Source: Escherichia phage SSBS18_WS_10_728. From it: DNA of 64,000 nucleotides. Where the stretch lies: the sequence record MT322327.1; one strand, given 5' to 3'. Made by a program: the position numbers and the translations under genes. Below the pieces are notes generated by a model. The model saw nothing but the letters and a program-made list of their open reading frames with translations. It made no database searches and had not been told where the DNA came from. Below are positions 34,862-56,651 of this stretch, one piece after another; the first letter of the stretch is position 1; each line of letters begins with the position of its first letter.

Positions 34862-35140
34862 TTAATCAAAAGTTACGTTTGTTACTGCCATTGCAGATTT
34901 GCATTTTGCAGGGTCTACAACGTGATAAAGTACACTACAGTTGCCTGTGCTGTCTGGTACAGGTTTAACCCATTGTTGCTTGACAGTTGGTTCTCCTAAG
35001 TCTTTGTAAGAGCCATCTGTAAAATTGTTTACCATCTCAAGTGCAATTGGTTCTGGAACATGACCACGAATCATATACATCTCACAACCATTTCCAGCAT
35101 CACTTATTAGGTCTTTTATTTCCCAATCTGCTTTAGCCAT
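34862..35140 (-). CDS. hypothetical protein
   Basis: ORF 34862..35167; start probably ATG 35140. Confidence 0.4.
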   Translation of the reverse strand: MAKADWEIKDLISDAGNGCEMYMIRGHVPEPIALEMVNNFTDGSYKDLGEPTVKQQWVKPVPDSTGNCSVLYHVVDPAKCKSAMAVTNVTFD

Positions 35141-35648
35141 TGTAAGTTGCCCTATAAACTGTCTCAAACTTCAACAGGAGAGATATTGCCAAATCTGTAT
35201 AGTTGTTGTCAAGCACATCTGGCATATTATTTTTGATATATTTCTCTTGCTCTTCATAGGTCATCTTAGGAATGCTTAGGAGTCTATCTCCTTGCTTCTG
35301 GTTATCAGCTTTAGTTTGGATAAACCAGTTTGCACAGTGATGCTCGCCACCTTTTGTAACAGGCTTGTGGTGACCTAATGTGAAGGACTGGTTACCTGTG
35401 TACCTACAAAGCTTATTGAGCACTGCAATGGTGTTCTTAACAACAAAACATTCATACAGGTTGTCTATGGTGTAATATGGATAATAGCGGAATAGTGCTC
35501 TTTCACGAGTACTATCACGATTCCAGAGAATCATGTGATTTGAGTTAGAAGGGTCGTATTGGTGGGAGTCAATGAACTCTTGACGTTCCTCAAAGCTTAG
35601 TCTTAGAACTGACATTGCAGCCGAACGTTTTAGATTTGACAGATACAT
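35133..35648 (-). CDS. HNH endonuclease
   Basis: Motif GHHKPVTKGGEHHCANW. Confidence 0.55.
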   Translation of the reverse strand: MYLSNLKRSAAMSVLRLSFEERQEFIDSHQYDPSNSNHMILWNRDSTRERALFRYYPYYTIDNLYECFVVKNTIAVLNKLCRYTGNQSFTLGHHKPVTKGGEHHCANWFIQTKADNQKQGDRLLSIPKMTYEEQEKYIKNNMPDVLDNNYTDLAISLLLKFETVYRATYNG

Positions 35649-35699
35649 TTTATCTCCAAAATAAAAAGGGAACCTTTACAGTCCCCTTATAGTATCTGT

Positions 35700-36020
35700 T
35701 TACTGAGCTACTTTCAAGATGCTTGTGAACGAGATTTCACTCTCATCCATAAACTCTTTTGCTTCTCCAGTAACTTTTACAAAGTTATCTAGGCAGATAA
35801 TCTTCTTATCTTTCTTGCTGTAGGTTAGTTTAACCTTTTCAATATCTTTCTTAGAGCTTTCCTCTTCATTGAAGAGTTTTACAGCTTCTTTGAATGGTAG
35901 ATATGAGCCGTCATCATCACTAATGAACCCTGTACCACAATAGTAGTAGTTATGTTCTTTAGCCATAAACTGGCACAGTACGAAAATCTGTAATTTACGA
36001 GTGTTATAAACTTTGCTCAT
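35700..36020 (-). CDS. hypothetical protein
   Basis: 106-aa ORF. Confidence 0.45.
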   Translation of the reverse strand: MSKVYNTRKLQIFVLCQFMAKEHNYYYCGTGFISDDDGSYLPFKEAVKLFNEEESSKKDIEKVKLTYSKKDKKIICLDNFVKVTGEAKEFMDESEISFTSILKVAQ

Positions 36021-36022
36021 GA

Positions 36023-36307
36023 TTATTTAGCCTTCTTGTTACGTTTACGGTTACGAGCTTTCTTAGCTGCACGTTTAATTGCTGCTGCACCAGTTGGTCG
36101 ATGTGCTTGTTTTTTACCACCTTTTCCACGTCCAACGTGGATGTAAGGCTGCTGTTCAATTTGGCTTGCAAGAACCTGTGCAACTGCTGAAGCATCTACA
36201 CCAACTTGCTTTCCAGTCATAGAAACAATTGCTGCTGCTTTTGCCAGTGCCTTCAAGAAGCCAGCTTTCATATTACCTAAAATTCCCATTTTTAGTCTCT
36301 CTCTCAT
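36023..36307 (-). CDS. hypothetical basic protein
   Basis: 94-aa ORF, Lys/Arg-rich C-terminus. Confidence 0.4.
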   Translation of the reverse strand: MRERLKMGILGNMKAGFLKALAKAAAIVSMTGKQVGVDASAVAQVLASQIEQQPYIHVGRGKGGKKQAHRPTGAAAIKRAAKKARNRKRNKKAK

Positions 36308-36582
36308 TAAAGTTTAATACAGAACTTATGAAGTTCTTCTTCAGTGATACCTATCGGAGTGATACCTTCTCTGATATTTTGAATCCTGTAGAAGTCTCCA
36401 AACTTATCTGATTCATGAATGACAAACGTGACATTCTTTACAATCGTTGCAAGAGCACATAATGAACGTGAACCAAATTTTTCTCTCGTATAAATCATCC
36501 AAGCATCTAACTTGTTGATGTCGTAAGTCCACTTACCAGAATAATCATTCTGCTCGCCATTGACAATCACCTTGCCACCCAT
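36307..36582 (-). CDS. hypothetical protein
   Basis: ORF 36307..36663 trimmed to ATG 36582 (GGAG RBS) to limit overlap with nrdG. Confidence 0.4.
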   Translation of the reverse strand: MGGKVIVNGEQNDYSGKWTYDINKLDAWMIYTREKFGSRSLCALATIVKNVTFVIHESDKFGDFYRIQNIREGITPIGITEEELHKFCIKL

Positions 36583-37030
36583 ACTCTTTTCTCCAGAGGT
36601 TTTGGTTATCAGAACCACGATATGGTTTAACTGTGGGTTTAGATGAATCATACTTACCATCAATCACCACGTCAACATATTTCATCACATCTAGGTGGAT
36701 TTTTTCGTGTAACTGAAAACCTGTCCAAAGCCATATAGACTTTTCTGGATAAACAGTTTTAATACGCTTGCATATGTTGGTGACCTCTTGAATGTTTCTA
36801 TCATCCAGAGGCTCCCCACCAAGTATTGATAGCCCACTGATGGCCTTATCATCCATTAACTTAATGATGCCGTAGAGGTTTGCATAAGTAAACTCTTTAC
36901 CAGCATTAAACTTCCAAGACTCCCTGTTAAAGCAGCCTTCACAGTGATGTTTACAGCCAGCTACGAAGAGACTTACACGAACCCCTTCACCATTAGCTGT
37001 GTCAAATGGTCGAATCTCCATGTAATTCAT
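36545..37030 (-). CDS. nrdG: anaerobic ribonucleotide reductase activating protein (radical SAM)
   Basis: Cys cluster GCKHHCEGCFN; adjacent to nrdD. Confidence 0.75.
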   Translation of the reverse strand: MNYMEIRPFDTANGEGVRVSLFVAGCKHHCEGCFNRESWKFNAGKEFTYANLYGIIKLMDDKAISGLSILGGEPLDDRNIQEVTNICKRIKTVYPEKSIWLWTGFQLHEKIHLDVMKYVDVVIDGKYDSSKPTVKPYRGSDNQNLWRKEYGWQGDCQWRAE

Positions 37031-37061
37031 CTAGTTACCTCACCAATACTATTTAATTGTT

Positions 37062-37457
37062 TTACTCATACACTACCTGACAAGGAACATATTTAGTAAT
37101 AAACTCTTCACAGTGCTCTTTAATGAAGTCTTGTAAGAGCACACAGTCTTGTGCACAAGTCATGAGTGCAATATACTCTGGGTTCATAATGTTTTCAATG
37201 GTGTAGAAGACAACATTGTCAGATAATTCATGACCGTCTTCTTCAGACCAAGTTCCAGTGACTACAGCTAGTTTATCAAGTAACTCATTAGTTAATGCTA
37301 CACCGTCTTCTACGGAATCACTTAGAACGTTGTCACTGATATACAATGTGAAGGTTGTATGGAATATTGAATATCTTACGTGACTCTTTTCGCAAGAGCC
37401 ACACTCTGAGGCGTAATCTTTAATCCACTCTAACTGTTTTTTGTTCAACTTAATCAT
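37062..37457 (-). CDS. hypothetical protein
   Basis: 131-aa ORF. Confidence 0.5.
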   Translation of the reverse strand: MIKLNKKQLEWIKDYASECGSCEKSHVRYSIFHTTFTLYISDNVLSDSVEDGVALTNELLDKLAVVTGTWSEEDGHELSDNVVFYTIENIMNPEYIALMTCAQDCVLLQDFIKEHCEEFITKYVPCQVVYE

Positions 37458-37654
37458 AATTTCACCTTAGTTGGCAATGCACTGAATGCTATAGCTAACC
37501 CTAAAAATGGTTTGAAGCATGACCATAAATCCATCTGACCATGATATGCGAAACTCCATTGTGGGTCTGAAAAACCCCATACCATAACACTAACCCCAAA
37601 GAAGAAGATTAGTATGTGGAGTATGTATATCAACGTTTTTGGTGTTTTAAACAT
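37454..37654 (-). CDS. small membrane protein
   Basis: 66-aa hydrophobic ORF. Confidence 0.4.
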   Translation of the reverse strand: MFKTPKTLIYILHILIFFFGVSVMVWGFSDPQWSFAYHGQMDLWSCFKPFLGLAIAFSALPTKVKL

Positions 37655-37808
37655 TTTAACTTATCTCTCAACTCACAATAGGAGAGTCCTAAAAAGAACC
37701 CTAGTAAGACAGAACCTATGAAAAACCCAATAATACTCTCTGCCATATCTAACATCCAATAAAAAAGGTGATGTAAGCCTATCAAGACTCACACCACCTT
37801 GTCAAGTT

Positions 37809-39953
37809 TTACATAGAGACTCTATCACGAATCTCAGCAATTTTTGCATCGTTCATTCGGGATTCACCTTTAATCTTAGTCCACCCAAGATACCCACACA
37901 CCCTGTTAATCACAGAGATATCATGTGAATGGCAAACCTCACATTCTTCAACATCAGCCTTTGGTCTGTTACCACAATGCTCACAGATTGCTAGGTCAAA
38001 GTTAAGTCCCTGATAAAAACCTTTCAGCATCCCTCTTGTAATACAACTCTTAAGTGCTGTTAAGTTTTCTGGGTTAGCTACCCTGACATACTGGATTCTG
38101 CCACCTCTACAGATATGGAAGAATGGCTCTTCTAAGTCCTGCTTCTCAAATGGTGAGATGTCTGCTGCAACATTCATATGGAAACTATTTGTAAAGTATT
38201 CCTTGTCAGAAACACCTTTGATAACACCAAACATTTCTCTGAACTGTTTTAGCTGAGTTCCACAAAGTGATTCTGCTGGAGTACCATAGACAGCGTATAA
38301 GAAGCCATCTTCATTTTTAAACTCTTCAGTTTTCATGTTGATGTATGCCAGAACATCGTATGCAAAACTATAGCTTCCAACTTCATGAAGTCGTTTACCT
38401 TCAGCGAGAACAGATAACTCATCAAGCGCAGTAACCCCAAAAGAAGCTGTGAAGGACTTCACGATATCCCAACCAACCTTATCAGTAGGCTTCTTAGTCC
38501 CTTTGTACAGACCACCTTGTGTGAACGCAAGAGGGTTAGAGCTTGCTGGCATGTTAGCAATCATTTCATAGCGTTTCTTGTGGAAGCTGCGAATCATCTC
38601 TAGGTACTTATCAAGCTCTTTCCAGAAATCTAAACCATTATCTTTAGAATACTGGTAAATCATTGGCAAGTTCAAAGATACAGCACCAATGTTAGCACGA
38701 CCTACATAGAACTCTTCCCCATTCTCGTTAAGATATGGAGATAAGAAAGCTCTGCAACCCATCGGTGAAATCACCTTACCAGAACGCTTAAAAGCATCTG
38801 CTACAGCACCATGACCAGATACACTTAAGAAATCTGGATACATCGCTTTAGAGCAACACTCAATAGCTTTTTCAAACAACCTTGCTTGGCATACATCAAG
38901 TTTATGTCTTGTCTCTTCATAGATATACACAAGTTTAGGAAACACAACAGGTTTTTTGCTTTTTCCTTGCCCGTTCATCCTTACATTAAGGATTGTATTG
39001 GCAATCATAAACTGAAGGCGGTTATCTTCATTGTGCATATCTGGTTCCAACAGGCCAAATGTCAGAGTAGTAAATGCAAAATCACCGCGACTGCAAGGAA
39101 CAGTGTTAAGTTTCATTTCAAGAGATTGGAAACCTTGTGTTAACTCATTCTGTAATTGCTCCATTACGTAATTATAGTGTTGCTCTTTAGGTATTCCGTA
39201 CTCTTCAGCTTTCTCTGAGTGGTACACTAAAGATTTTTTAGCATACGGTACAAGTACCTTGTCAATCTCTGCTAAAGTAAAGCCACCAAATTGCTGTGCA
39301 GTTGCTGAAAGAACTACATCACCAATAACCTGTAAGGCTGACAGCACAGACTTCGGTTCACAGTATTCAATTCCAGACATTTCAAAGCCACCTTTCAGTA
39401 CTTTACCAATGTCGAACAGGCAACAGTTGATACCACCAAAAATTAGGTCTCTCAAGTCATGGATGTAGATAAACCCTTTTTCAATGGCTTCAAGTTCCTC
39501 TGGTGTTAAATGGTACTGTTTAAAGATTTCTTTAGTCAGATAACCACGAATAATTGAACCTTTTGTAGAAATTAAACTGCTGTCAAAGTTAGCATTTTCA
39601 CGGTCACCTAAGAAGAGTGTATCTCTAGTCTTTTGGTAAAGCTCGTCCCAATTTTGAGCAACCTCTTTACGGTAATTTCTATATGTTGAGTAGGACTCAT
39701 AAATCTCGTGATTAACTTCTGCCAAAGCACCCTCAACAATACTGTGAATATCATTTACCGAGATGAGCAAATTATTCTGCTTAGTGGACTTTACCAGAAT
39801 CCTCATAAATGCTGACTCAAGAGCTTGGGTAACATCTGGTGGAAGTTCTTTATACCCAACCCTGTTAGCTGACTTAGTTACTGCTGCTAAAACTTTTTTG
39901 ATATCAGGTTCTTCAAGTGAGCCATTCTTTTTAATAATCTGTACTTTGTTCAT
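37809..39953 (-). CDS. nrdD: anaerobic ribonucleoside-triphosphate reductase
   Basis: C-terminal Zn ribbon CEHCG...CEVCH and glycyl-radical motif RVCGYLG. Confidence 0.8.
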   Translation of the reverse strand: MNKVQIIKKNGSLEEPDIKKVLAAVTKSANRVGYKELPPDVTQALESAFMRILVKSTKQNNLLISVNDIHSIVEGALAEVNHEIYESYSTYRNYRKEVAQNWDELYQKTRDTLFLGDRENANFDSSLISTKGSIIRGYLTKEIFKQYHLTPEELEAIEKGFIYIHDLRDLIFGGINCCLFDIGKVLKGGFEMSGIEYCEPKSVLSALQVIGDVVLSATAQQFGGFTLAEIDKVLVPYAKKSLVYHSEKAEEYGIPKEQHYNYVMEQLQNELTQGFQSLEMKLNTVPCSRGDFAFTTLTFGLLEPDMHNEDNRLQFMIANTILNVRMNGQGKSKKPVVFPKLVYIYEETRHKLDVCQARLFEKAIECCSKAMYPDFLSVSGHGAVADAFKRSGKVISPMGCRAFLSPYLNENGEEFYVGRANIGAVSLNLPMIYQYSKDNGLDFWKELDKYLEMIRSFHKKRYEMIANMPASSNPLAFTQGGLYKGTKKPTDKVGWDIVKSFTASFGVTALDELSVLAEGKRLHEVGSYSFAYDVLAYINMKTEEFKNEDGFLYAVYGTPAESLCGTQLKQFREMFGVIKGVSDKEYFTNSFHMNVAADISPFEKQDLEEPFFHICRGGRIQYVRVANPENLTALKSCITRGMLKGFYQGLNFDLAICEHCGNRPKADVEECEVCHSHDISVINRVCGYLGWTKIKGESRMNDAKIAEIRDRVSM

Positions 39954-39972
39954 TATTGCCCCTTTACATGCT

Positions 39973-39998
39973 AAAAAGGTCTCCGAAGAGACCCTTTC
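39973..39998 (-). terminator. rho-independent terminator
   Basis: Minus strand: GGTCTC-TTCG-GAGACC then TTTTTAG. Confidence 0.5.
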
Positions 39999-40001
39999 AT
40001 T

Positions 40002-40208
40002 TTAAATCTTTTTAGAAAACTTTGAAATGAGTTTTCTTAGTTTTTTAGTGATGCCTAGCTGTATCTCTAATATTTCAATGATAACCCATAGTAACATGGC
40101 TCCAAACAATGAACCTTGTTCAAAATCAGTAAATAGGTTAACAACAAGCATACCAATCACAATGGCTGGTGCATCAACAACCAAGCCTTCCCAAAGGCGT
40201 TTAAGCAT
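40002..40208 (-). CDS. small membrane protein
   Basis: 68-aa hydrophobic ORF. Confidence 0.4.
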   Translation of the reverse strand: MLKRLWEGLVVDAPAIVIGMLVVNLFTDFEQGSLFGAMLLWVIIEILEIQLGITKKLRKLISKFSKKI

Positions 40209-40443
40209 TATTCACCTCTGCCATAAAATTCTGTAGTGTTCCGACAGGCTTTAGATTTTGACCATCCGTTTTCATGATGAATGGCATCTGGCGAACTGGC
40301 ATCTGTGCAATATCTATCAGGTCTGACAGTTCATAATCCTGCCCTAACATTCTCACAACATGGTCAACACCACGAGCTTTTGCAAAATTCTTTGCAGTCT
40401 CACACTGAGGGCATCCAGTTTTGGAGTAAATTACATAAGTCAT
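40201..40443 (-). CDS. glutaredoxin/NrdH-like redoxin
   Basis: CPQC active-site motif; between nrdB and nrdD. Confidence 0.65.
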   Translation of the reverse strand: MTYVIYSKTGCPQCETAKNFAKARGVDHVVRMLGQDYELSDLIDIAQMPVRQMPFIMKTDGQNLKPVGTLQNFMAEVNNA

Positions 40444-41516
40444 TAAGGAACCTCTAAAAATCCACTATTCAAATCATCTACAACAGTATTCAATAAATAC
40501 GCACCGTTCTGTTGCTCCTGATTAGCATTCTGCTCTTTATCAATTTCCATCTTCTTAATCATATACTTCAAAGGTGGTTCTTTAGGAGCTACAAAATCTC
40601 TAGGAATGCCAAACATATCATACAGTGGGGCAGCATTATAGTAAACCCACTCATGAAGAAGCTTTGTATTTAACCCAACTACAGCACGTCCTTCGGAGAA
40701 GATATAATACGACCATTTTTCTTCGCTTTCAACTACTTCATCTAAGATTACTTTAATCTCTGGAAGAATTTGTTGGAAAGCTTTTTGCCACTCATCATCT
40801 CTTAAAGTTTCTTTTAAAACTTCAATATCAATTTTAGTGTGAAGGATTTCATCAAGCATAATTTTCTGGACAGCTTGAGCAATACCCTGAAATTTATCTT
40901 GAGCATCAAGTGCAAAAGTACATGCAAAGGATGCCATAAAGGATATACCTTCCAGTGCAGTCACTGCAAATAGACCTTTTAGAATCACTTTATGGAAGTG
41001 CAAAGGGTCTTTGTCCAGAAGTGAGTCACGGACATAACTCAGCCGATAGTTGATACCTTCATCCAGCAATTCTTCAAGAACACGATTCACAGTTTTTAAT
41101 CGGTCTTGTACAGCAATGTTCTGGTTAATCTCATCTAAGATTGTTTCAGGGTTTTTAATACACTGTCTTACAATCTCCGAGTAAGTAAGAGCATGTAGGT
41201 TTTCAATCTCAGACTGCTTCATAATTGCAGTTGCATAAATGTCATCAGAGATGAATGGTGCAAAAGCAAACGCTAAACTCTTAGCAACTTGGGTGTCTGC
41301 TTCCCACTGCCACTTAAGAATCTCAAGCATTACACCTGACATTGATGCTGGTACGCTTTCAAAGTCAAGACGTGATTGTTCAAAAGGGAACTCATCTTCT
41401 GACCAATCTTGTGCTTTTTGTTGTTTGTACAGTTCAAAGATTTTTGGGTAGTGTTTATTAAGTGAGTCAAATGTCTTTCTCTCACCACCTAAAAAGATTG
41501 GGTGTTGGTTAATCAT
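40443..41516 (-). CDS. nrdB: ribonucleotide reductase class Ia beta subunit
   Basis: Start set to ATG 41516 (AAGGAGA RBS); adjacent to nrdA. Confidence 0.8.
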   Translation of the reverse strand: MINQHPIFLGGERKTFDSLNKHYPKIFELYKQQKAQDWSEDEFPFEQSRLDFESVPASMSGVMLEILKWQWEADTQVAKSLAFAFAPFISDDIYATAIMKQSEIENLHALTYSEIVRQCIKNPETILDEINQNIAVQDRLKTVNRVLEELLDEGINYRLSYVRDSLLDKDPLHFHKVILKGLFAVTALEGISFMASFACTFALDAQDKFQGIAQAVQKIMLDEILHTKIDIEVLKETLRDDEWQKAFQQILPEIKVILDEVVESEEKWSYYIFSEGRAVVGLNTKLLHEWVYYNAAPLYDMFGIPRDFVAPKEPPLKYMIKKMEIDKEQNANQEQQNGAYLLNTVVDDLNSGFLEVP

Positions 41517-41770
41517 AGTGTGATTTCTCCTTTCTTTATCATCTCTAAGGCTTGTTTTCTGTCTAAAACTTCCCAATTTTCTTTGTTAAACATGTCATAA
41601 GGTCTTGCATAGATTTTACCATCTGCTGTAGAGATGTAAGAGACACCAGCGACCCATGAGTCATCCTTCTGTTTTATCATCATATCTGTGCTACTCACAT
41701 AGTACAGCGTTTTCCGAGGTTTGTGGAGCAAGTATATGGGCCATTCGTGATTTGCTATTAAGTCTTTCAT
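41513..41770 (-). CDS. hypothetical protein between nrdA and nrdB
   Basis: ORF trimmed to ATG 41770 (GGAGAAA RBS). Confidence 0.4.
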   Translation of the reverse strand: MKDLIANHEWPIYLLHKPRKTLYYVSSTDMMIKQKDDSWVAGVSYISTADGKIYARPYDMFNKENWEVLDRKQALEMIKKGEITL

Positions 41771-41825
41771 AGTTTCTCCAAAGTTATTTTTAGAGGGTCT
41801 TTTACGACCCTCATAGTTATTAAAA

Positions 41826-44060: not shown

Positions 44061-44077
44061 TTTTGAATCCTACAGAT

Positions 44078-44100: not shown

Positions 44101-44106
44101 CCTAGT

Positions 44107-45739: not shown

Positions 45740-46237
45740 TCAAGCACAATTCGCTTTCATTACCTTATGGATTCTTTTTTCAGCATCTTCATAAGTTTCT
45801 TTAGTAATAAACTTAATTGCTGCAATATTGGCATTGTAGAAGAGTCTGAGCTTAGAGTCAATCCTTTTTGTCATTACATCGAATTTATGTTGGAGATTTG
45901 CTTCACCATAAACTAGGCCACCTTTCGTGTAGTAGGTTTGGATAATGTAAAAGTCAAAAAATTCCTTTCCAAAGCTCTCGATATCTTTTTTAATATACTC
46001 AGAAGAAGTCTCATAAGTCATCCAATCACTCTCCTTAGTGACTACCTTCTTCCGAGTCTTGCCAGCAACTTTTCTTTTGGTCACACTATTAAGCTGTTTC
46101 TTTCCAATATAATACTGTCCGGTTTTCTTACAGTGTACTAAATAGACAAAACCAAAATGTTTAGTGGGGTCAACTTCCCCACATAAAGATACCCAATGAC
46201 CATAGGTAGGGCAATTACCAAATCCTTTAATCTTCAT
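45740..46237 (-). CDS. GIY-YIG endonuclease-like protein
   Basis: N-terminal GFVYLVHCKKTGQYYIGKK resembles GIY-x10-YIG motif. Confidence 0.5.
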   Translation of the reverse strand: MKIKGFGNCPTYGHWVSLCGEVDPTKHFGFVYLVHCKKTGQYYIGKKQLNSVTKRKVAGKTRKKVVTKESDWMTYETSSEYIKKDIESFGKEFFDFYIIQTYYTKGGLVYGEANLQHKFDVMTKRIDSKLRLFYNANIAAIKFITKETYEDAEKRIHKVMKANCA

Positions 46238-47267
46238 TCATACACGGCTCCCAATTATATTTCTTAAAAGAGAAATCGTCTTTCTTGTTTCTTTCCTGAT
46301 AAGCTAAGAAAAAGTGTTGCTGCATTAATTCTAAAGGTGTTCTGGTGATTGTCTGACCATCCCACGATACATAGGTGTATGACTCTTTCTTAGCATAAAG
46401 CTCATAAATTGCATCAAGACACTCTTTGTAAGTGGTTTTACCTTCAAGGGCTTTCATTATAGTAGCCTTACCAACGCCCTTCAAACCAAAATAATTATCC
46501 GCATTATCACCAGCCACAGCTTGGTAGCAAAGAAATTTAAAACCTACCCCTACTGTCTTTTTAGCTTTTGGTGTCGATTTTATTGGGCAATCCCAGATAT
46601 CACCAACGTTATTGTCAGCAATAAAAATTAGTGGTGACTTTTCATAAGTCATATCAATACAATAAGTACCTTCAGCTTGTCGAAGGTCTTTATCAATGCT
46701 CATAAGAGCAGCTTTCTTACCCATCTTTTCAGCTTTAGCAATTACGATTGAATCGGCTTCGAAGCCACCCCTTAAGAGCTTGAACTCTGGTCTGGATAAA
46801 AGATATTCACGACAAGCGACTAAGTGCGTTGGTGTGACAGCATCTTTACGGTTACCTTGATATTGGTGCTCAAGACCTTTAACGTCTTTATGTTTATGTA
46901 CACCTTTCTCTGTTAAGTAACCTACCCAAATTCTTTCTTTACCAACAACCTTAAGCCATTCCTGAAGAACCTGCTGAGTAGCCATGATAGCTTCTTTTTC
47001 ACTCTTAGCTTCTTTCCAGGTCTGTCTTTCCCATTCATCCTCATCAAATGTTAGGCCAAGCTCTTCCACAAAGATTCTCTGGTCTGCTAACCATCTTGCA
47101 GCATCTTTTGCATTATCAAATGGTTCAGACTCTTCTGCTGTGAGTTTATTGACGTATTTATATTTTGCTTTCTCAACTACACAAGCACCTTTATAGGCAA
47201 TACTGTCAGAGTCAATAAAGACATGTGTAACTGAATCGGGAAGTTTTGTTAGCGTATACTTCTCCAT
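46227..47267 (-). CDS. 5'-3' exonuclease / flap endonuclease
   Basis: H3TH motif GVGFKFLCYQAVAGDNADNYFGLKGVGKATIMKAL; GGAGAG RBS. Confidence 0.75.
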   Translation of the reverse strand: MEKYTLTKLPDSVTHVFIDSDSIAYKGACVVEKAKYKYVNKLTAEESEPFDNAKDAARWLADQRIFVEELGLTFDEDEWERQTWKEAKSEKEAIMATQQVLQEWLKVVGKERIWVGYLTEKGVHKHKDVKGLEHQYQGNRKDAVTPTHLVACREYLLSRPEFKLLRGGFEADSIVIAKAEKMGKKAALMSIDKDLRQAEGTYCIDMTYEKSPLIFIADNNVGDIWDCPIKSTPKAKKTVGVGFKFLCYQAVAGDNADNYFGLKGVGKATIMKALEGKTTYKECLDAIYELYAKKESYTYVSWDGQTITRTPLELMQQHFFLAYQERNKKDDFSFKKYNWEPCMNED

Positions 47268-48187: not shown

Positions 48188-48405
48188 TATTTAAACCTCT
48201 ATCTCAATTTATGAAGAGTACCAATTCTAATTTGTTGATACTCTATTGTCAAATATTAATTACTGGAAGTTGTGCTTATCTTTAGAAGCTGCTTTACGTG
48301 CAGTTTTTCCAGTTCTCACACGCTTCTCTTCATAGTATTTTGCTGGTTTACCAGCAGTGGCTTTTAAGGAATCCCCAAAAACTTGTTCAAATGCTTTAGA
48401 GTGTT

Positions 48406-48699
48406 TCATGATATTCTCCGATATACTTGATATTCAAACACATTTTCTTTAATTATAAACAGCCAACCAATATTATGTTTAGGTATAGTAATGGTGACTG
48501 TGATTATGCTGTGATGGAACTTTTCTTCTACCTCAACGCCTCCATCACATTTCATGTAGAGCATTCTATAGAACCTATCAACCTTTGTCAAACACTCTTC
48601 CTGAAATTCATTTAAACTTTTTTCTTCAAAGAAGGGTATGAACCCCTCTCTTTTATAACTATCATTCAGTTTCGAATGGGCAGTCATCTGCATCCTCAC
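48406..48699 (-). CDS. hypothetical protein
   Basis: 97-aa ORF. Confidence 0.4.
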   Translation of the reverse strand: MRMQMTAHSKLNDSYKREGFIPFFEEKSLNEFQEECLTKVDRFYRMLYMKCDGGVEVEEKFHHSIITVTITIPKHNIGWLFIIKENVFEYQVYRRIS

Positions 48700-50647: not shown

Positions 50648-50840
50648 TAGCACCTCTTCGTTGTAGTTCTGCCTTCAATCCGTTTTCAATTTTGTCCAGT
50701 TCATGAATTTCATCTGCAATCTCTTTCCTTCGTGATTCAACTCTCTTAAGACGTTCAATCATTACCTCATTGGAAAGAGATGAGAGTTCCACTAAACGAT
50801 GGTCAATAACTTTGAAATTATCTTTTACTCTCATCTTCAT
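50640..50840 (-). CDS. hypothetical small coiled-coil protein
   Basis: 66-aa ORF. Confidence 0.35.
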   Translation of the reverse strand: MKMRVKDNFKVIDHRLVELSSLSNEVMIERLKRVESRRKEIADEIHELDKIENGLKAELQRRGANV

Positions 50841-50848
50841 CCTCTCTT

Positions 50849-51592
50849 TTAAATTTTCAGGATAGCTCTTAGCTTGCTTTCAAGGTCTTCAAGAGTACCA
50901 TTATTATGGATAATGTCACGCGCATATTTGGTAGAAATTCCATTTTCTGAAACATGTGATGAAACCTTATCCACATTGTCTCTTTTTACTTCAATAATTT
51001 GGTGTGCAAATCTACTCAGCCACTCAGCTTCAGAGTCAAATCTTAAGTCACTGATTAAAACAACACCTTCTTGATTTCTAAGTGAGCAAACGTCAAAGAA
51101 ATTTGCCATTCGTTTTTCAAGGTCTTTAGCCCAGAATTTGTCACCCATAACTTTACGGATAACTTCAGTTCCCCAAATCTGTTGAATTTGTCTTGATGAA
51201 AATTTATACTTTTTACTAAACCCCAGACGTGTTAACAAAGTTGGTTTAGCAACCTTCTTTAGTTCCATAATTAACCGTCCGGTTAACTCTGACATAAGTT
51301 TAAAGTCCGTATGATAACGTTCACCTCTGAAGGTAAACTCCATAGCTTCTGTGACTTTGAACATCAGTTCAGGGTATGATAAATCAAAAACCTGTGGAGT
51401 TTCTTTAGTTTCACCGTACAGGTCATTCCAAGTCAAGTCAAATATCTTTGATGCAGAGAGTTTAAGGTTGTCTGCATAGGCCATTACTGCAACATTGTAA
51501 CCATACTCATCTTCTAGGATATTCTTAACAATCGAACATGAGGTATCCTTTCCAGAACGTGCCTTTCCAGTAAATGCGATAATACTACTCAT
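50849..51592 (-). CDS. deoxynucleoside monophosphate kinase (T4 gp1-like)
   Basis: P-loop AFTGKARSGKDT; start set to ATG 51592 with AAGGGAGA RBS. Confidence 0.65.
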   Translation of the reverse strand: MSSIIAFTGKARSGKDTSCSIVKNILEDEYGYNVAVMAYADNLKLSASKIFDLTWNDLYGETKETPQVFDLSYPELMFKVTEAMEFTFRGERYHTDFKLMSELTGRLIMELKKVAKPTLLTRLGFSKKYKFSSRQIQQIWGTEVIRKVMGDKFWAKDLEKRMANFFDVCSLRNQEGVVLISDLRFDSEAEWLSRFAHQIIEVKRDNVDKVSSHVSENGISTKYARDIIHNNGTLEDLESKLRAILKI

Positions 51593-51653
51593 TCTATCTC
51601 CCTTCATTACTAAAAAGCCCCCAACTAAGGAGGCTTGTAAGGTTTATAAAGAC

Positions 51654-52466
51654 TTAGTGCAGTTGGTCAGTATTAATCTGTGAATACTCTTTTTCAGCCA
51701 TAGCTGAGATTTGCTTCACAAAATCGTCACCAAAGTTAATACGCAGTTTCTCTTCAATGATTGAAGCACCGATGTTAACCAAAACATCATTGATTGCTTG
51801 CATACTCACACCACCAGTCATGCTCTCAATGAACTCAATGCTTGTACCCATCATCTGTGAAAGTTGGATTAGTGCAGTGATATTCATCATCGTGGAGATA
51901 GCTGGAATCATCAATGCAACTTTCACCTGAAGTGGTTCTATATCAGCTACAGAATCATTTTTTACAGCTTCTTCCAAAGATTCTTTGGTTTGCTGGATAA
52001 TCTCTTTGATTCGTGGGTTTAACTCTTCTACACCCCAATCAAGTTTTTCATATCGTGACAGCTTCTCTTCCATTCGCTTCTCAAGAGCAGCCATAACAGC
52101 ACTCGTTGACGAAATTAACAGGTCAATTAGCTCATTATTATCTAAGAGCAGTAGCGAGTCTTTTTCTTCAGAAGTCATAGCAATATAGTCATTTTTCTGC
52201 ATTTCATAAAAAATGAACTCTGCAAGAGCATCAACACCTACAACGATAGATGCTAAAGCAAGTTTTTTGTCGCAAAGCATCATGTTGACCTGTTCTGCAA
52301 AAGCACCGTTATCAGACTTGTCTTTAGGTAGGTTATAGCTTGCAGGCATAAACTGTTCTGTGTAGTTGTTTCCACGAAGAATCATAGCCATGCTTTCTAC
52401 GGCATTGATTAAGAATGCTTCGTCAATACCTTTTTCTTCAAGCATTTGTTCTACATTGATATTCAT
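51654..52466 (-). CDS. hypothetical protein
   Basis: 270-aa ORF. Confidence 0.5.
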   Translation of the reverse strand: MNINVEQMLEEKGIDEAFLINAVESMAMILRGNNYTEQFMPASYNLPKDKSDNGAFAEQVNMMLCDKKLALASIVVGVDALAEFIFYEMQKNDYIAMTSEEKDSLLLLDNNELIDLLISSTSAVMAALEKRMEEKLSRYEKLDWGVEELNPRIKEIIQQTKESLEEAVKNDSVADIEPLQVKVALMIPAISTMMNITALIQLSQMMGTSIEFIESMTGGVSMQAINDVLVNIGASIIEEKLRINFGDDFVKQISAMAEKEYSQINTDQLH

Positions 52467-52467
52467 A

Positions 52468-52890
52468 TTATTTCTCTCTCAGTTGGTTAAGTTTCTTTCT
52501 AGAACATTTTAAGTTTTCGGATGAAGAAAAGTCAAGTGTCTTTTCAGAACGTGGATAGTAATGTCTATCCCAAGAAGTTTCAACATCGTTAATCAGTGAC
52601 GCTAGATTACACAGGTCTGTACCACTTTGCAACCTCTTTTTAAGAGAATCTAGTAAAGCAACTGTGTCTTTAGCTTTACGCCTCGCTGTAGCAACATCTT
52701 TCATATGCTCAAATACAGAGCATTTTAAGTCATCTTCATAGTTTTCAGACAACTCTATTTCATGTTGTATATCAACCATTCTCCTGTGATGGTGAGCATA
52801 TTCCCGTTGAGCAGCAATGTCAAGTTCTTCCAACTTCTGCAAAGCTCTAACAAAGTCAGCTATGTCTGGGTGAACAAACATTTTCTGCAT
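52468..52890 (-). CDS. hypothetical protein
   Basis: 140-aa ORF. Confidence 0.5.
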   Translation of the reverse strand: MQKMFVHPDIADFVRALQKLEELDIAAQREYAHHHRRMVDIQHEIELSENYEDDLKCSVFEHMKDVATARRKAKDTVALLDSLKKRLQSGTDLCNLASLINDVETSWDRHYYPRSEKTLDFSSSENLKCSRKKLNQLREK

Positions 52891-53147
52891 GTAAGCCTCT
52901 TTTAAGTAACTATTAAGTTTTAATCTTTTATCTTAACGTATTCTATACGTTATACTTTAAAGCTTTTTAAAAGCTATTAAATAATCTTTTAAGAGTTTTA
53001 AAGTATCTGTATAGTTAAACTGTTAAGTAACCTTTTAAGTAAAAACCCACTTCGCAAAGATTAACACCTTGTCAAGTACATTGTCAACTTGCTTTTTATA
53101 ATTTTTTGCAGTAATGTATGAGGTTAATGATTTTAGAGGGAGTAAAA

Positions 53148-55290
53148 ATGGAAAACGTAGATTTTAAAAACTTACATTTAGTTGGTGATACAGAAACTGA
53201 TGGTTTACTCCTTGAGTTCACTAAGGTGCACGTAATGGCTTTCGCAGACTATAAATCTGACGATGAAGAGCCACCTGTATGGGTCTTTACAGACGAGCCT
53301 ATCCTCGGTCACAAGTATACCAAGCACATTAAGGGTGGTTTACGTGAAGGTGTTGAGTTTGCGTTAAAGGCAAAACGACTTTGCATCCATAATGGTCTGG
53401 GATATGACTGGTGGGTTTTCAATCACATCGCACCTGATTTGTGGAACTTTGATAATCCAAAGTGTAAACCGTGGAGTAATTTCTTTCAGGACTCTCTTAT
53501 CCAGTCTCGTGTTCAGTGGATGGATAGACCAACTCCAAAAGGCTATAAAGGTGCTCATGGCTTGGCTGCATGGGGTGCTCGTGTTGGTGTACGTAAACCA
53601 GAGATTGAACATTGGGGTGTGTGGAATGCAGAAATCTTCACTCGTGTTGTGGAAGATATCCGTATTAACGCCAAAACTAAACGTGCACTGGATAATGAAT
53701 ACCTGAAGTTAAAGAAGTGTGGTATAGACACTTATGAAACCTATATGCGAGCTAAAGAAACATCTTTCTGGATGAGTCAACAAGCTATCAATGGTTGGAA
53801 AGCTGATAAAGAGCTTATGGAGTTCCATGTAAAGGAGCTTGACAAGTTGACTAATGAGCTTGCTTCGGAAGTTGAACCACACCTTCCTCCAACTATTAAG
53901 ACCAAAGGTAAAGTCACTGGAGAAGAGTTTGCAAAAGCTTGGAATGAGTATGTGGAAGCGTTCGGTCATGCAGATGGACTGAAGAGAATTACCAAGTACC
54001 CTAAGACGAAGTACCGTCAGCAGGTACGTAACGGTGAGATGCAGACATACGAAATCAAACCATTTGGTAAGCCAACTACAAAGATTTTTAACATTGAAAA
54101 GAGAAATTGTTATACACCAACCAACTCTGTAACTGGTGAAGAGTACAAGGAAGGTTTTGTAGCAATGAAGGATGCTCGTGCAATTTGCAATGAGTTGAAT
54201 GCAAAGATTGGTAAGAAATGCAAAGACTGGAAGCCAGTAAAAACAGTTAAAACTGTGAAGTACTATAACAGTCATGTTGTTAACCACTTTGAGCTTGAGT
54301 CAAGTCGCTACACAGGTTTGATTGATGCACCATATACCCCAATTGAGTTCGAAGTTTCTCGTATGACTCAGGTAGCAGTTGTTAAAGACTACTTGAAATC
54401 AGTTGGTTGGATTCCAGATGACTGGAACTACAAGAAAGACTCAGATGGTCGTCCTGTCAAAGTTTGTCGTTTCAAAGACAACAAAAAGATGATTACAAAG
54501 CATCCTAAGTGGCAGGAGATGGTTGAACGGTGTGGCTTGAGTTATGTTGAACATGAAGGTGTCCAGTACATTGAACATAACTGGTCTGTGAAGAAGTACA
54601 CAGATTTGCTTGAGCCTTGCTTAATCCGTACTTCACCAAAACTTACTGAATCTTCTTACGATACGATTGAAGGTGAGCTTGGACAGAAGATTGCTAAGTA
54701 CTACACTTTGATGCACCGACGCAGAACTATTGAGAACTCAAAGGATGATGAAAAAGGCTGGTTGAACCAGATTCGTCCTGATGGTCGCCTTAGTGCTGGT
54801 GCAATGGTATTTGGTACTTCAACTGGACGTATGACACAATATGGTATTGTAAACGTACCGTCTGGTGCTGCTGTCTATGGGGAACCGATGAGGGCAGTGT
54901 GGATTTGTGAAGAAGGTACTAACGTTGTCTCTGTAGACATGAACTCAGCCCAGCTAGTTCTCCTTTGTAACTTTATGGGTGACAAAGAGTTCACTAAAGC
55001 AGTAACTGAAGGTAAAGAGTCAGTAGAATTTACCAAGCAAGAAGATGGGAGATATTATTGCAAACATCTTGATAAGTACCTTAATCCAGAAACTGATAAG
55101 TATCTTCGTTATGATGCTGAGAATGACCTCTATGAAGTCTACACAGGTACTGATGCACATACACTGAACAGTATCTATTTTGCATTGAACAAAGAGGATG
55201 ACATTATTCGTTGTAGAGAAACTCAGGATGAAGAACTTCTTCACGAGATAACTAAAGGCCGTAAGAAGGCTAAGAATGGTATCTATGCGT
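53148..55290 (+). CDS. DNA polymerase family A, exon 1 (3'-5' exonuclease and N-terminal polymerase domains)
   Basis: Exo I motif VGDTETDGL; motif A VDMNSAQLVLL; AGAGGGA RBS before ATG 53148; reading frame is interrupted where polymerase motif B begins. Confidence 0.75.
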
Positions 55291-55557
55291 CAGTGGCGCA
55301 TGTAAAACGTTGTGAATTGCTGGAAGCCTAAGTCTGAGAAGATACGGTAATCAGCAGCGAAGCCTCTTGAGAGGAACGTTCAGAGACTATCGAAAAGCAT
55401 ACTTAATGTATGAACTGAGTAGAGTAGGGTGGTAAGCTAATGACCATTCCCAAGTGCAACGGTAGCATCCTGCTACGTGATATAGTCCGACACTCCGTAG
55501 AAATGCGGAGAAGTTCATAAGAGAACTGGTACACCTTGCGAGTGTATTGACCAGATG
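55291..55557 (+). ncRNA. group I self-splicing intron in the DNA polymerase gene
   Basis: Exon 1 ends in U paired to G of internal guide GCGCA (P1 = exon UGCGU with intron GCGCA); intron ends in G; splicing restores in-frame motif B ...IYALLFGAGDEKF... Confidence 0.7.
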
Positions 55558-56114
55558 TATTGTTCGGTGCAGGTGATGAGAAGTTTGCCAAAACTATCAA
55601 GGCATCATCTACGGAAGAAGGTGCATTGACTAAACAAACTTACTATATGCGTCTGCCAAAGATTAAGAAGTTACTTGATAGCTTAGAAGCCGATTTTAAG
55701 GCGTCTAAAAAGGCTCTGGAAGAGGTTTTCGGGAAGAACTCTTCAATTGCTAAAGGTGGTTATATCAGGGTTGCTGGAGCATGGATATGGTGCAAATCTC
55801 CACATAAACTGCTGAACTACCTTCTGATGAGTTCGGAAGCACAGATTCAGAATGAGGCCATCAACCTAGCAGCAAGAAAAGCTTGTGAAGATGGTCTGAC
55901 AAAACTGAATGCTCGAAAACCAGCTATCGGAGCAAGGTTACTTCTGGCATATCACGATGAAAATAGTTGGGAATGTCCAGAGGGTATGACACATGATATG
56001 AAAGCAATTGCTGACTGGATGTATGGACAAGCTTCAAAAAACTTAGGTTTGAGGAAAGAAACACTTGTAACTGGCACAGCAAAGGTTGGTAAGAGTTGGT
56101 ATGAGGTACATTGA
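55558..56114 (+). CDS. DNA polymerase family A, exon 2 (motifs B and C)
   Basis: LFGAGDEKFAK matches T7-type motif B YGAGDEK; motif C YHDE; no ATG start, in frame after splicing. Confidence 0.75.
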
Positions 56115-56117
56115 TTG

Positions 56118-56651
56118 ATGGATTTTATTTCACAAGAACGTTTAAAGGAGCTGCTGCACTATGACCCCGAAACAGGGGTCTTTACTTGGCTTCGTAGAGA
56201 AGGTAAATCAAGAGCTGTTAGTGTTTTTAACAGTAACTATGCAGGAAAGGTAGCAGGTAATATCCAGACTGATTCAAGTGGTCATAAACAGATTAGTATC
56301 TATTTTGACAAGAAAGCACATAAAGCACACAGACTCGCATGGCTTTACGTGTATGGCAAGATGCCAAAAGGTATCATTGACCATATCAACGGAGACTCAC
56401 TTGACAACAGGATTGTAAACTTAAGGGAAGCAGATGATTTTCAAAGTGCTTGGAATAAAGGTAAACCAGTCACCAATAAATCTGGGTACAAGGGTGTAAG
56501 CCTTAAGAAGAAGTCTGGTAAGTGGGTCGCACAGATAAGTTATAAAGGTAAGAAGATGTTTTTAGGTTACCATGATACACCTGAAGAAGCCCATAAAGCT
56601 TACTGTGAAGCTGCTGTGAAACTCCACGGAGAGTTTGCAAAACTATCTTGA
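56118..56651 (+). CDS. HNH endonuclease with AP2 DNA-binding domain
   Basis: HNH motif DHINGDSLDNRIVNLR and AP2-like GYKGVSLKKKSGKWVAQISYKGKKMFLGYH; directly after the polymerase. Confidence 0.65.
   Translation: MDFISQERLKELLHYDPETGVFTWLRREGKSRAVSVFNSNYAGKVAGNIQTDSSGHKQISIYFDKKAHKAHRLAWLYVYGKMPKGIIDHINGDSLDNRIVNLREADDFQSAWNKGKPVTNKSGYKGVSLKKKSGKWVAQISYKGKKMFLGYHDTPEEAHKAYCEAAVKLHGEFAKLS

What the first reader, a model, noticed from the sequence alone, without database searches (positions are those of the whole stretch)
35133..56651. Three different homing-endonuclease types beside core replication and metabolism genes
An HNH endonuclease (35133-35648) follows the NAD+ pair, a GIY-YIG-like endonuclease (45740-46237) sits beside the flap endonuclease, and an HNH-AP2 endonuclease (56118-56651) follows the intron-containing polymerase. 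This marks local mosaicism and possible recent gene conversion at these loci.
Basis: partly seen in the sequence, partly recalled or inferred. Interest (0 to 1): 0.35.

Follow-up and report, generated by a model that had tools for sequence, protein, structure and literature searches.

The report
One mobile endonuclease, two fixed ones
In this Felix O1-like phage only one of the three flagged nuclease genes behaves as a mobile homing endonuclease: it sits just after a DNA polymerase gene that carries a protein-less self-splicing intron, and it probably drives that intron's spread, while the other two are fixed, conserved genes.

Summary
The window is a Felixounavirus genome segment, about 95% identical to Salmonella phages BPS17W1, SPJ41 and D1-2. 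All three ORFs exist at the stated coordinates.

- **56118-56651:** a confirmed HNH_3+AP2 endonuclease. It is a 537-bp cassette (56115-56651) inserted exactly after the polymerase stop codon. Relatives lack it or carry one of at least four allelic types.
- **45740-46237:** a confirmed SegE-like GIY-YIG domain protein. It is 93-99% conserved in essentially every relative, so it is fixed rather than sporadic.
- **35133-35648:** below every curated profile threshold. It has an invariant H...N...N motif and weak convergent HNH signals. It is conserved across the subfamily, and its rare absences are deletions or replacements.

The polymerase does carry a group I intron (55291-55557) with no ORF, splitting motif B. 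The pol 3' end through the cassette (about 54990-56651) is a fine-scale mosaic.

Of 96 relatives with this intron, ORF-less copies always have the downstream HNH-AP2 cassette. Copies carrying their own EndoVII-type ORF mostly lack it. This fits trans or collaborative homing, a known mechanism, but cleavage is untested.

Homing endonuclease gain and loss in Felix O1-like phages, and their intron-encoded EndoVII genes, are already published. This is a new member of a known kind, of modest interest.

The parts
35133..35648 (-). ORF1, 171 aa. A conserved Ounavirinae protein with a divergent HNH-like beta-beta-alpha motif (LGHHKPVTKGGEHHCANWFIQTKADNQKQG; H93, N107, N116) inside a helical domain. 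It is fixed rather than sporadic.
34300..34869 (-). 5' part of the prs (ribose-phosphate pyrophosphokinase) gene. This is a deeply divergent allele block next to the small ORF 34862-35167 and ORF1.
   Evidence: 68-79% identity to BPS17W1, REP10, Alf5 and L27, against 97-100% to SP4. Flanking sequence is 90-99% identical.
45740..46237 (-). ORF2, 165 aa. A SegE-like GIY-YIG nuclease-domain protein with no recognisable DNA-binding domain. It is a core gene of the subfamily, often annotated 'NAD synthetase' or 'GIY-YIG homing endonuclease'.
   Evidence: PF19835, E=9.4e-28. PHROG 447; invariant G29 F30 Y32, Y43 G45 K46, E112, N135, with R62 nearly invariant; 211 of 227 records; all homologues carry PF19835 and most, including the closest, lie on contigs of 85-90 kb.
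46227..46700 (-). 3' end of the 5'-3' exonuclease gene and its junction with ORF2. This is the empty site where relatives (bumzen, Felix O1 and others) carry a 516-nt HNH-AP2 cassette. The locally divergent tract seen in those relatives lies here.
   Evidence: two-piece matches about 490 bp longer; bumzen annotation; 71-82% identity at 46200-46600. HNH_3, plus a weak, sub-threshold AP2 match (17.7 bits, cut-off 33.3), in the bumzen protein.
53118..55290 (+). DNA polymerase (family A) exon 1. It ends with ...KAKNGIYA and the first base of a Leu codon. The last base, U55290, is the 5' splice-site U.
55291..55557 (+). Group I intron, 267 nt, with no ORF, ending in G55557. The P6 hairpin is closed by a short loop at the position where relatives carry an Endonuclease_7-type ORF.
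   Evidence: Rfam RF00028, 60.6 bits; ends fixed by comparison with five intronless relatives; alignment with ORF-containing forms; present in 96 records at 95-99% identity; the relatives' ORF is PF02945, E=6e-20.
55558..56114 (+). DNA polymerase exon 2 (LLFGAGDEKF ... EVH, then stop). This is allele 'A', 96-99% identical to relatives with cassette type W or S and 70-79% identical to all other alleles.
56115..56651 (+). Free-standing HNH_3+AP2 homing endonuclease cassette. The CDS is 56118-56651, 177 aa, type W. It is inserted immediately after the pol stop codon and flanked by a TTGA repeat. A GAGGT ribosome-binding site lies in the last pol codons.
   Evidence: alignment with the cassette-less wV8 and HK3; types W, S, F and X at the same slot, 40-54% identical; distribution.
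54990..56651 (+). Mosaic block covering the last 300 nt of exon 1, the intron, exon 2 and the cassette. In this window it is a patchwork of different nearest relatives.

Best explanation
The three genes are different things.

**(1) The mobile unit: cassette 56115-56651 plus intron 55291-55557.**
- The cassette is a free-standing HNH+AP2 homing endonuclease gene. It has no promoter of its own that I could identify and is probably read from the polymerase transcript.
- It lies 825 nt downstream of the intron insertion site. The intron is ORF-less, sits in polymerase motif B, and cannot move by itself.
- *Inferred mechanism:* in mixed infections the endonuclease nicks or cuts the polymerase 3' region of a phage that lacks it. 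Repair copies the cassette, and with it exon 2 and the intron, from this genome. This would be trans homing (as with T4 mobE and the nrdB intron) or, if the cut falls at the intron insertion site, collaborative homing (Bonocora and Shub; Zeng et al.).
- *Shown here:* the domains, the exact insertion point, the splice junction, the presence/absence polymorphism, the mosaic block, and the association between ORF-less introns and the cassette.
- *Inferred, not shown:* cleavage, its position, and the direction of transfer.

**(2) ORF2 (GIY-YIG) and ORF1 (HNH-like).** Both are nuclease-domain genes fixed and vertically inherited across Ounavirinae. They do not mark recent conversion.

**(3) What this phage lacks.** It has none of the cassettes that relatives carry in nrdD or between the exonuclease and the GIY-YIG gene.
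For: **Domains and intron.** Domains. Intron and precise in-frame splice restoring KNGIYA|LLFGAGDEKF. Cassette boundaries against cassette-less wV8 and HK3.

**States seen in relatives.**
- No intron, no cassette: wV8, UAB_Phi87, AYO145A.
- Cassette only: CRP22, HY02, SP116, Felix O1, SUSP1/2.
- ORF-less intron plus cassette: the window, BPS17W1, phiWec177, fKMPT1 and others.
- EndoVII-carrying intron without cassette: HK3, FSL SP-010/012/107, JH2, EC6 and others.
- EndoVII-carrying intron with cassette: GEC_vB_B1.

**Association between intron form and cassette.**
- Of 96 intron-bearing records, only 25 lack a cassette after pol. Of these, 24 carry the EndoVII ORF in the intron. The 25th, GEC_vB_BS, has lost exon 2 as well.
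- Every ORF-less intron checked has a cassette. They occur with types W, S, F and X and on several exon-2 alleles.
- Rough Fisher test by records: p about 4e-12. The records are not independent.

**Recent intron transfer.** Intron cores are 96-99.6% identical while flanking exons differ by 20-30%.

**Shape of the divergent block.**
- The cassette-less, intron-less relatives examined all share one exon-2 allele, the one closest to the outgroup genus Suspvirus.
- The block extends leftwards from the cassette into pol and stops at the conserved cassette tail.

**Fixity of ORF1 and ORF2.**
Against: - No cleavage data exist for any of these proteins.
- Four cassette-bearing, intron-less genomes have a 'cassette-less-type' sequence at the intron insertion site: the metagenomic Felixounavirus contigs L014 and L015 (IMG/VR 3300045988_003641 and 3300045988_004931), SUSP1 and SUSP2. 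In L014 and L015 the divergent tract starts only 250 nt into exon 2. This argues that at least some cassette types do not cut at the insertion site and do not need the intron for self-protection.
- The 311-nt ORF-less intron form is a visible deletion derivative of the EndoVII form. Part of the pattern is therefore ORF decay.
- The association is counted over database records that share ancestry and sampling bias.
- The joining rule used could miss an ORF-less, cassette-less genome that has more than about 430 nt of other DNA inserted after pol.
Confidence: 0.6

Rival explanations
1. Decay cycle without collaboration. The ORF-less intron is simply a relic of the EndoVII-carrying mobile intron after loss of its ORF (the Goddard-Burt cycle). 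The HNH-AP2 cassette is an unrelated free-standing element that homes into the pol/downstream junction. The two are merely neighbours.
For: - The 311-nt form keeps remnants of the ORF flanks. GEC_vB_BS against GEC_vB_B1 shows such a deletion in otherwise identical genomes.
- Cassette-bearing, intron-less genomes with an unaltered insertion site exist.
- Cassettes occur without the intron in other genera (SUSP1/2, Sf13).
Against: - Under pure decay, ORF-less introns without a cassette should be common, because 24 records carry the EndoVII form without a cassette. None with an intact polymerase was found.
- The ORF-less intron is nearly identical across exon alleles that differ by up to 29% and across four cassette types. 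It therefore kept moving after losing, or without ever having, its own ORF.
Confidence: 0.25
2. The ORF-less intron is mobilised in trans by the EndoVII-type endonuclease of co-infecting relatives, not by the neighbouring HNH-AP2. In this genome the intron mainly protects the insertion site from that enzyme.
For: - EndoVII-carrying copies of the same intron circulate in the same genus and hosts. About 37 of 96 intron-bearing records are estimated to carry one (23 of the 60 rows listed; the ORF is identified).
- Different intron-bearing genomes show different right-hand crossovers only 15-40 nt from the insertion site. This is as expected for breaks made at that site.
- Intron-encoded EndoVII-motif endonucleases of JH2, EC6 and FSL SP-010 are listed as such in PMC6083498.
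Against: - A donor with the ORF should usually pass on the ORF as well.
- This reading does not explain why ORF-less introns are never found without the downstream cassette.
Confidence: 0.1
3. The mosaic at the polymerase 3' end reflects ordinary recombination plus diversifying selection on the polymerase (for example escape from host defence), with endonuclease genes as passengers.
For: Other mosaic spots without an endonuclease gene exist nearby: prs 5', and the ligase at 57650-57800 and 58550.
Against: - The divergence is almost wholly synonymous in the motif B stretch examined.
- The block ends exactly at the cassette tail.
- Cassette-less, intron-less genomes share a single allele.
Confidence: 0.05

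Closest known systems
Trans homing of the T4 nrdB intron by the free-standing HNH endonuclease MobE (Wilson and Edgell 2009, PMC2790892)
   Same: A promoter-less free-standing HNH endonuclease gene lies next to a gene whose group I intron has no working endonuclease. The intron lies within co-conversion distance of the cassette: 825 nt here, against up to about 2 kb reported for T4. Flanking sequence is dragged along.
   Different: The host gene is a family A DNA polymerase rather than nrdB. The endonuclease has an AP2 DNA-binding domain. The intron here has no ORF at all, rather than a defunct one. Activity is not tested here.
Collaborative homing: the phage PhiI DNA polymerase intron with a downstream free-standing HNH gene (Bonocora and Shub 2009), and the S-PM2 psbA intron with F-CphI (Zeng et al. 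2009). Both as summarised in PMC3984707 and PMC2988022.
   Same: [quoted passage not shown] As I recall it, the PhiI case also involves a family A polymerase with the endonuclease gene downstream.
   Different: The defining feature, cleavage at the intron insertion site, is untested here. It is partly contradicted by cassette-bearing, intron-less genomes with an unchanged site. The insertion site (motif B) differs from the three polymerase intron sites listed in PMC3428280 (674, 676 and 881 in E. coli Pol I numbering). By my own alignment from memory this one is near residue 763-764, which I did not test.
Intron-encoded EndoVII-motif (DHHRN) homing endonucleases of Felix O1-like phages JH2, EC6 and FSL SP-010 (Fang et al. 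2018, PMC6083498)
   Same: It is the same intron at the same site in the same genus. The window's intron core is 96-97% identical to those copies.
   Different: The window's copy has no ORF. Its P6 hairpin is closed by a 3-nt loop, with a compensatory C-G to U-A change in the stem.
T4 Seg proteins (free-standing GIY-YIG homing endonucleases, e.g. SegE)
   Same: ORF2 matches the SegE GIY-YIG domain model over its full length.
   Different: No DNA-binding domain is recognisable. The gene shows no presence/absence polymorphism and is conserved at the same locus across genera.
HNH endonuclease genes of Felix O1 (six copies; Whichard et al. 2010, PMC3185647) and their gain and loss as the main difference between Felix O1-like genomes (Moreno Switt et al. 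2013, PMC3728262)
   Different: Felix O1 itself has no polymerase intron. This phage has fewer cassettes than Felix O1 or BPS17W1.

Membership tests
Free-standing HNH(+AP2) homing endonuclease (ORF3) | HNH catalytic domain above curated threshold | tested here: met
   PF13392 HNH_3 at 54.4 bits against a cut-off of 24.8.
Free-standing HNH(+AP2) homing endonuclease (ORF3) | Separate DNA-binding domain | tested here: met
   PF00847 AP2 at 44.7 bits against a cut-off of 33.3.
Free-standing HNH(+AP2) homing endonuclease (ORF3) | Presence/absence polymorphism at a fixed intergenic site among close relatives | tested here: met
   The cassette lies exactly after the pol stop codon. wV8 and HK3 have the uninterrupted junction.
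Free-standing HNH(+AP2) homing endonuclease (ORF3) | Co-converted or divergent flanking tract | tested here: met
Free-standing HNH(+AP2) homing endonuclease (ORF3) | Site-specific nicking or cleavage of the cassette-less allele, and super-Mendelian inheritance | not testable with these tools
   Requires enzyme assays and phage crosses.
GIY-YIG homing endonuclease (ORF2) | GIY-YIG catalytic domain with conserved Tyr, Tyr, Arg, Glu and Asn | tested here: met
   PF19835 at 97.4 bits. Invariant Y32, Y43, G45, E112, N135 and nearly invariant R62. The catalytic role assigned to each residue is inferred.
GIY-YIG homing endonuclease (ORF2) | C-terminal DNA-binding module joined by a linker | tested here: not met
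   The domain spans residues 21-138 of 165. No other Pfam, NCBIfam or PHROG domain was found.
GIY-YIG homing endonuclease (ORF2) | Sporadic distribution among close relatives | tested here: not met
   211 of 227 records cover at least 80% of the query, and 214 of 227 match at 90-95% identity. The gene is also present in Mooglevirus and on contigs of 85-90 kb at 50-87% amino-acid identity.
HNH endonuclease superfamily (ORF1) | Match to a curated HNH profile above threshold | tested here: not met
   No Pfam or NCBIfam hit reaches its cut-off. Only sub-threshold hits were found.
HNH endonuclease superfamily (ORF1) | Conserved His ... Asn ... Asn/His triad on a beta-beta-alpha element | tested here: met
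   H93, G100, G101 and N107 are invariant and N116 nearly so. The model places them on strands 89-93 and 108-112 and helix 113-119. They align to a genuine HNH protein.
HNH endonuclease superfamily (ORF1) | Significant structural similarity to solved HNH nucleases | tested here: inconclusive
HNH endonuclease superfamily (ORF1) | Homing behaviour (sporadic distribution, empty sites) | tested here: not met
   ORF1 is present in nearly all relatives. L27 retains the first 16 or so codons, so it is a deletion. SP4 is a replacement and ESCO45 a large deletion.
Group I intron | Covariance-model match above the Rfam gathering score | tested here: met
   RF00028 at 60.6 bits against 50.
Group I intron | U before the 5' splice site, G at the 3' end, and in-frame ligation restoring a conserved protein motif | tested here: met
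   U55290 and G55557. The joined exons read KNGIYALLFGAGDEKF, as in five intron-less relatives.
Group I intron | Self-splicing | not testable with these tools
   Needs RT-PCR or in vitro transcription.
Trans or collaborative homing unit | Endonuclease-less intron with a free-standing endonuclease gene within co-conversion distance | tested here: met
   825 nt separate the insertion site from the cassette.
Trans or collaborative homing unit | Intron and endonuclease gene inherited together | tested here: met
   ORF-less introns have a cassette in every checked case. The 24 cassette-less introns all carry their own ORF. Counts are by record and are not corrected for phylogeny.
Trans or collaborative homing unit | Endonuclease cuts at the intron insertion site (collaborative homing proper) | tested here: inconclusive
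   This was only indirectly testable. Five cassette-bearing, intron-less genomes have a divergent site, while four have the cassette-less-type site. The divergence at the site is no greater than that of the whole allele.

The most novel reading that the evidence does not exclude
Felixounaviruses may be a natural population caught at every stage of the proposed route to mobile introns. One ribozyme intron in polymerase motif B is driven either by its own EndoVII-type endonuclease or by any of at least four interchangeable HNH-AP2 cassettes parked after the gene. An intron with no driver nearby does not persist. [quoted passage not shown]
Probability: 0.4. Interest if true: 0.55.

Novelty: new member of a known kind. 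Interest (0 to 1): 0.35.

Why it matters
- **Annotation.**
  - Only one of the three genes should be called a homing endonuclease.
  - 'NAD synthetase' for the GIY-YIG gene is a poor label.
  - 'HNH endonuclease' for the 106-aa neighbour of ORF1 is also a poor label.
  - The split polymerase should be annotated as one spliced gene.
- **Phage taxonomy and therapy work.** The pol 3' end is unsuitable as a phylogenetic marker in this genus.
- **Biology.** The strict pairing of ORF-less introns with a downstream endonuclease cassette, across many easily grown phages, offers a tractable system. It could be used to test how non-autonomous introns persist and how composite mobile introns arise.

Tried and rejected
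[quoted passage not shown] I rejected this. That allele differs from the cassette-less allele by 10-18 per 50 nt throughout, so the site is not special. In addition, L014, L015 and SUSP1/2 carry a cassette with the unchanged site.
2. **First AlphaFold model of ORF1.** Built from 12 close homologues, it was unusable (pLDDT 55.8). A more diverse alignment gave pLDDT 92.
3. **Profile search of ORF1 against PDB sequences.** It returned only a repeat-inflated match of the N-terminus to staphylococcal protein A. I treat this as chance.
5. **GEC_vB_BS as a counter-example.** It looked like an ORF-less intron without a cassette. It turned out to lack exon 2 from +35 through to the cassette tail, compared with a sibling genome that is identical in the flanking sequence. 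I set it aside as defective or mis-assembled.
6. **IMG/VR scan.** It yielded only 16 loci. Population counts therefore rest on GenBank records listed 60 at a time. A full cross-table of all records was not possible.
7. **Other endonuclease copies in the window.** tblastn with the relatives' nrdD, exonuclease-slot and EndoVII endonucleases found no further copies.
8. **Bonocora and Shub 2009.** The paper could not be read. Its content is taken from reviews and from memory.

Full report
**Origin of the window.** The 21.7-kb stretch named in the finding matches 265 phage records. 216 of them match over most of its length, and the best matches are 94-95% identical: Salmonella phages SPJ41, SWJM-02, BPS17W1 and D1-2, all Felixounavirus, subfamily Ounavirinae. 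The gene order is that of Felix O1:
- nadV (32139-33938) and prs (33967-34869), the 'NAD+ pair';
- nrdG, nrdD, nrdB, nrdA and mazG;
- the 5'-3' exonuclease (46227-47267), primase/helicase and dNMP kinase, all on the minus strand;
- then the polymerase on the plus strand.

**ORF3 (56118-56651).**
- It matches Pfam HNH_3 (E=9.3e-15) and AP2 (E=1.7e-11), both above their cut-offs, and PHROG 99 'HNH endonuclease'.
- Alignment with wV8 and HK3, which lack it, shows a 537-bp cassette (56115-56651) inserted directly after the polymerase stop codon: ...GTACATTGA | TTGATGG...TCTTGA | CAAGGTGC. A TTGA repeat sits at both ends.
- The cassette-bearing form has GAGGT ten bases before the ATG, where the empty form has GAAGT.
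- At the same slot relatives carry at least four types (W, S, F, X). These are 40-54% identical in protein sequence and all match HNH_3. AP2 is above its Pfam cut-off in S and F and below it (28.2 bits) in X. W, S and F share an almost identical 24-residue C-terminal tail.
- This is a genuine, polymorphic, free-standing homing endonuclease cassette.

**The polymerase intron.**
- Rfam places a group I intron at 55279-55510 (60.6 bits, gathering score 50).
- Comparison with five intron-less polymerases fixes it at 55291-55557 (267 nt), with U55290 before the 5' splice site and G55557 at the end.
- Joining the exons gives ...RKKAKNGIYA|LLFGAGDEKF..., the family A motif B. The intron holds no ORF.
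- In many relatives the same intron, with a core 96-97% identical, carries a 160-aa Endonuclease_7-type ORF (PF02945, E=6e-20) in the P6 loop. The stem shows a compensatory C-G to U-A change between the two forms.
- Such intron-encoded EndoVII-motif proteins of JH2, EC6 and FSL SP-010 are already listed in Fang et al. 2018 (PMC6083498).
- Felix O1 itself has no intron, in line with Whichard et al. 2010.

**Mosaic structure at the polymerase locus.**
- Against 15 relatives, polymerase sequence from 53118 to about 54900 is 93-99% identical.
- From about 54950-54990 to the polymerase end, identity falls to 71-82% against phages that lack the cassette or carry another type. It stays at 94-99% against phages with type W and some with type S, and returns to 90% or more right after the cassette.
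- Exon 2 falls into at least five alleles that differ by 20-30%.
- The cassette-less, intron-less phages examined all share one allele, the one nearest the outgroup genus Suspvirus.
- The left edge of the divergent tract lies 300-400 nt upstream of the insertion site in most cassette-bearing genomes. In two metagenomic contigs it lies 250 nt inside exon 2.
- The window itself is a patchwork:
  - 55020-55139 is identical to NBSal004;
  - 55200-55319 is identical to GEC_vB_B1;
  - the intron differs at 1 of 267 positions from fKMPT1, which has cassette type F and exon 2 only 71% identical;
  - exon 2 and the cassette are 97-98% identical to BPS17W1, CRP22 and L27;
  - the best match for 54960-55290 as a whole is only 92.7%.

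**Intron form versus cassette.**
- The intron occurs in 96 records at 95-99% identity, in three lengths:
  - 267-268 nt, ORF-less;
  - about 311 nt, ORF-less with remnants of the ORF flanks;
  - about 800 nt, with the EndoVII ORF.
- A synthetic query joined the intron to the sequence downstream of the cassette. It reports a single joined match only when no cassette lies between them. It found 25 such records: 24 carry the EndoVII ORF, and the 25th, GEC_vB_BS, lacks exon 2 as well and is probably defective or mis-assembled.
- Every ORF-less intron that I could check has a cassette. These cover types W, S, F and X, exon-2 alleles A, B-like and F, and one frameshifted cassette in IME338.
- Roughly 0-1 of 58 ORF-less introns lack a cassette, against 24 of 37 ORF-bearing introns. 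By records, p is about 4e-12. The records are not independent, and the joining rule could miss unusual layouts.
- The simplest reading is that an intron persists and spreads only with an endonuclease gene linked to it, either inside it or 825 nt away. This matches the arrangement of trans homing (T4 mobE and the nrdB intron, PMC2790892) and of collaborative homing (reviews PMC3984707 and PMC2988022).
- Whether the HNH-AP2 enzyme cuts at the insertion site is unknown. Cassette-bearing, intron-less genomes with an unchanged site argue that at least some types do not.

**ORF2 (45740-46237).**
- The SegE-type GIY-YIG domain is confirmed (E=9.4e-28, full model length). The expected invariant residues are present.
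- No DNA-binding domain is detectable.
- The gene is present in 211 of 227 matching records, 214 of which match at 90-95% identity. It is 93-99% identical locally and conserved in related genera.
- It is a fixed gene, not a marker of mobility.
- The mosaic tract at the exonuclease 3' end belongs to a different element. That element is a 516-nt HNH-AP2 cassette which bumzen, Felix O1 and others carry between the exonuclease and ORF2, and which is absent here.

**ORF1 (35133-35648).**
- No curated model reaches threshold.
- Independent weak hits all fall on residues 62-152. A profile of the family reaches a genuine HNH protein at E=1.4e-4.
- H93, G100, G101 and N107 are invariant and N116 nearly so in a family only 22-46% identical to the window protein.
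- A confident model (pLDDT 92) places them on a beta-beta-alpha element inside a helical domain.
- I regard ORF1 as a probable, divergent HNH-like protein, at about 0.8.
- It is present in nearly all relatives, including Mooglevirus at 76% DNA identity and a Yersinia phage at 48% protein identity.
- Its rare absences are secondary. L27 keeps the first 16 or so codons, SP4 has methylase genes in its place, and ESCO45 has a large deletion.
- A divergent block in the prs 5' part lies nearby, but nothing ties it to ORF1.

**Comparison with the literature.** Homing endonuclease gain and loss is already described as the main difference among Felix O1-like genomes (PMC3185647, PMC3728262, PMC4837284, PMC9951933). 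I found no paper describing the pairing of ORF-less polymerase introns with the downstream cassette in this genus. My literature access is limited.

**Verdict.** The finding is a new member of a known kind, of modest interest.

Noticed in passing
L034 (MW006475, GEC_vB_BS) 3000-3470, compared with L005 (GEC_vB_B1) 3600-5313: GEC_vB_BS lacks both the EndoVII ORF and a 966-bp stretch running from 35 nt into polymerase exon 2 to the tail of the HNH cassette. Its flanks are 99-100% identical to those of its sibling GEC_vB_B1. The polymerase would lack motif C, so this is probably an assembly artefact or a defective genome.
   Followed up: partly
L036 (MH051914, IME338) 2729-3258: The type W HNH-AP2 cassette is split over two reading frames. 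It is a decaying copy sitting next to an ORF-less intron.
   Followed up: partly
window 35700-36020 (-): RefSeq and GenBank records (BPS17W1, ESCO45, Sf19) label the homologue of this 106-aa ORF 'HNH endonuclease' or 'putative endonuclease'. Pfam gives only DUF7390 (E=8e-17), with no HNH signal. The HNH-like gene is its neighbour at 35133-35648, so the label looks misplaced.
   Followed up: yes
window 37809-39953 (-): The anaerobic ribonucleotide reductase gene nrdD is uninterrupted here. BPS17W1 has two endonuclease genes splitting it, and UAB_Phi87 has one.
   Followed up: partly
window 34300-34870 (-): The 5' part of prs is a deeply divergent allele. It is 68-79% identical to BPS17W1, REP10, Alf5 and L27, and 97-100% identical to SP4. 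The small ORF 34862-35167 next to it is absent from BPS17W1 and L27.
   Followed up: partly
window 35133-35648 (-), residues 12-53: The N-terminus (LSFEERQEFIDSHQYDPSNSN) resembles the repeated B-domain motif of staphylococcal protein A ([22 protein letters not shown]). The E-value is inflated by the repeats, and each single match is insignificant.
   Followed up: no
window 55291-55557, and alignment A2: There are two independent ORF-less forms of the intron. One is a clean 267-nt form with identical boundaries in the four copies aligned. The other is a 311-nt form that keeps remnants of the ORF flanks. The P6 stem shows a compensatory C-G to U-A change between the ORF-less and ORF-bearing forms.
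   Followed up: partly
window 57650-57800 and 58500-58600: Further short drops in identity (71-87%) occur inside and just after the DNA ligase gene. They appear in most relatives, and no endonuclease gene lies nearby in this window.
   Followed up: no
window 231-5256 (-): A dense array of 24 tRNA genes above the Rfam threshold lies here, as is typical of Felix O1-like phages.
   Followed up: no
window 45740-46237 (-): Many database records name this GIY-YIG protein 'NAD synthetase', and PHROG 447 carries that label. No NAD synthetase domain is detected.
   Followed up: partly
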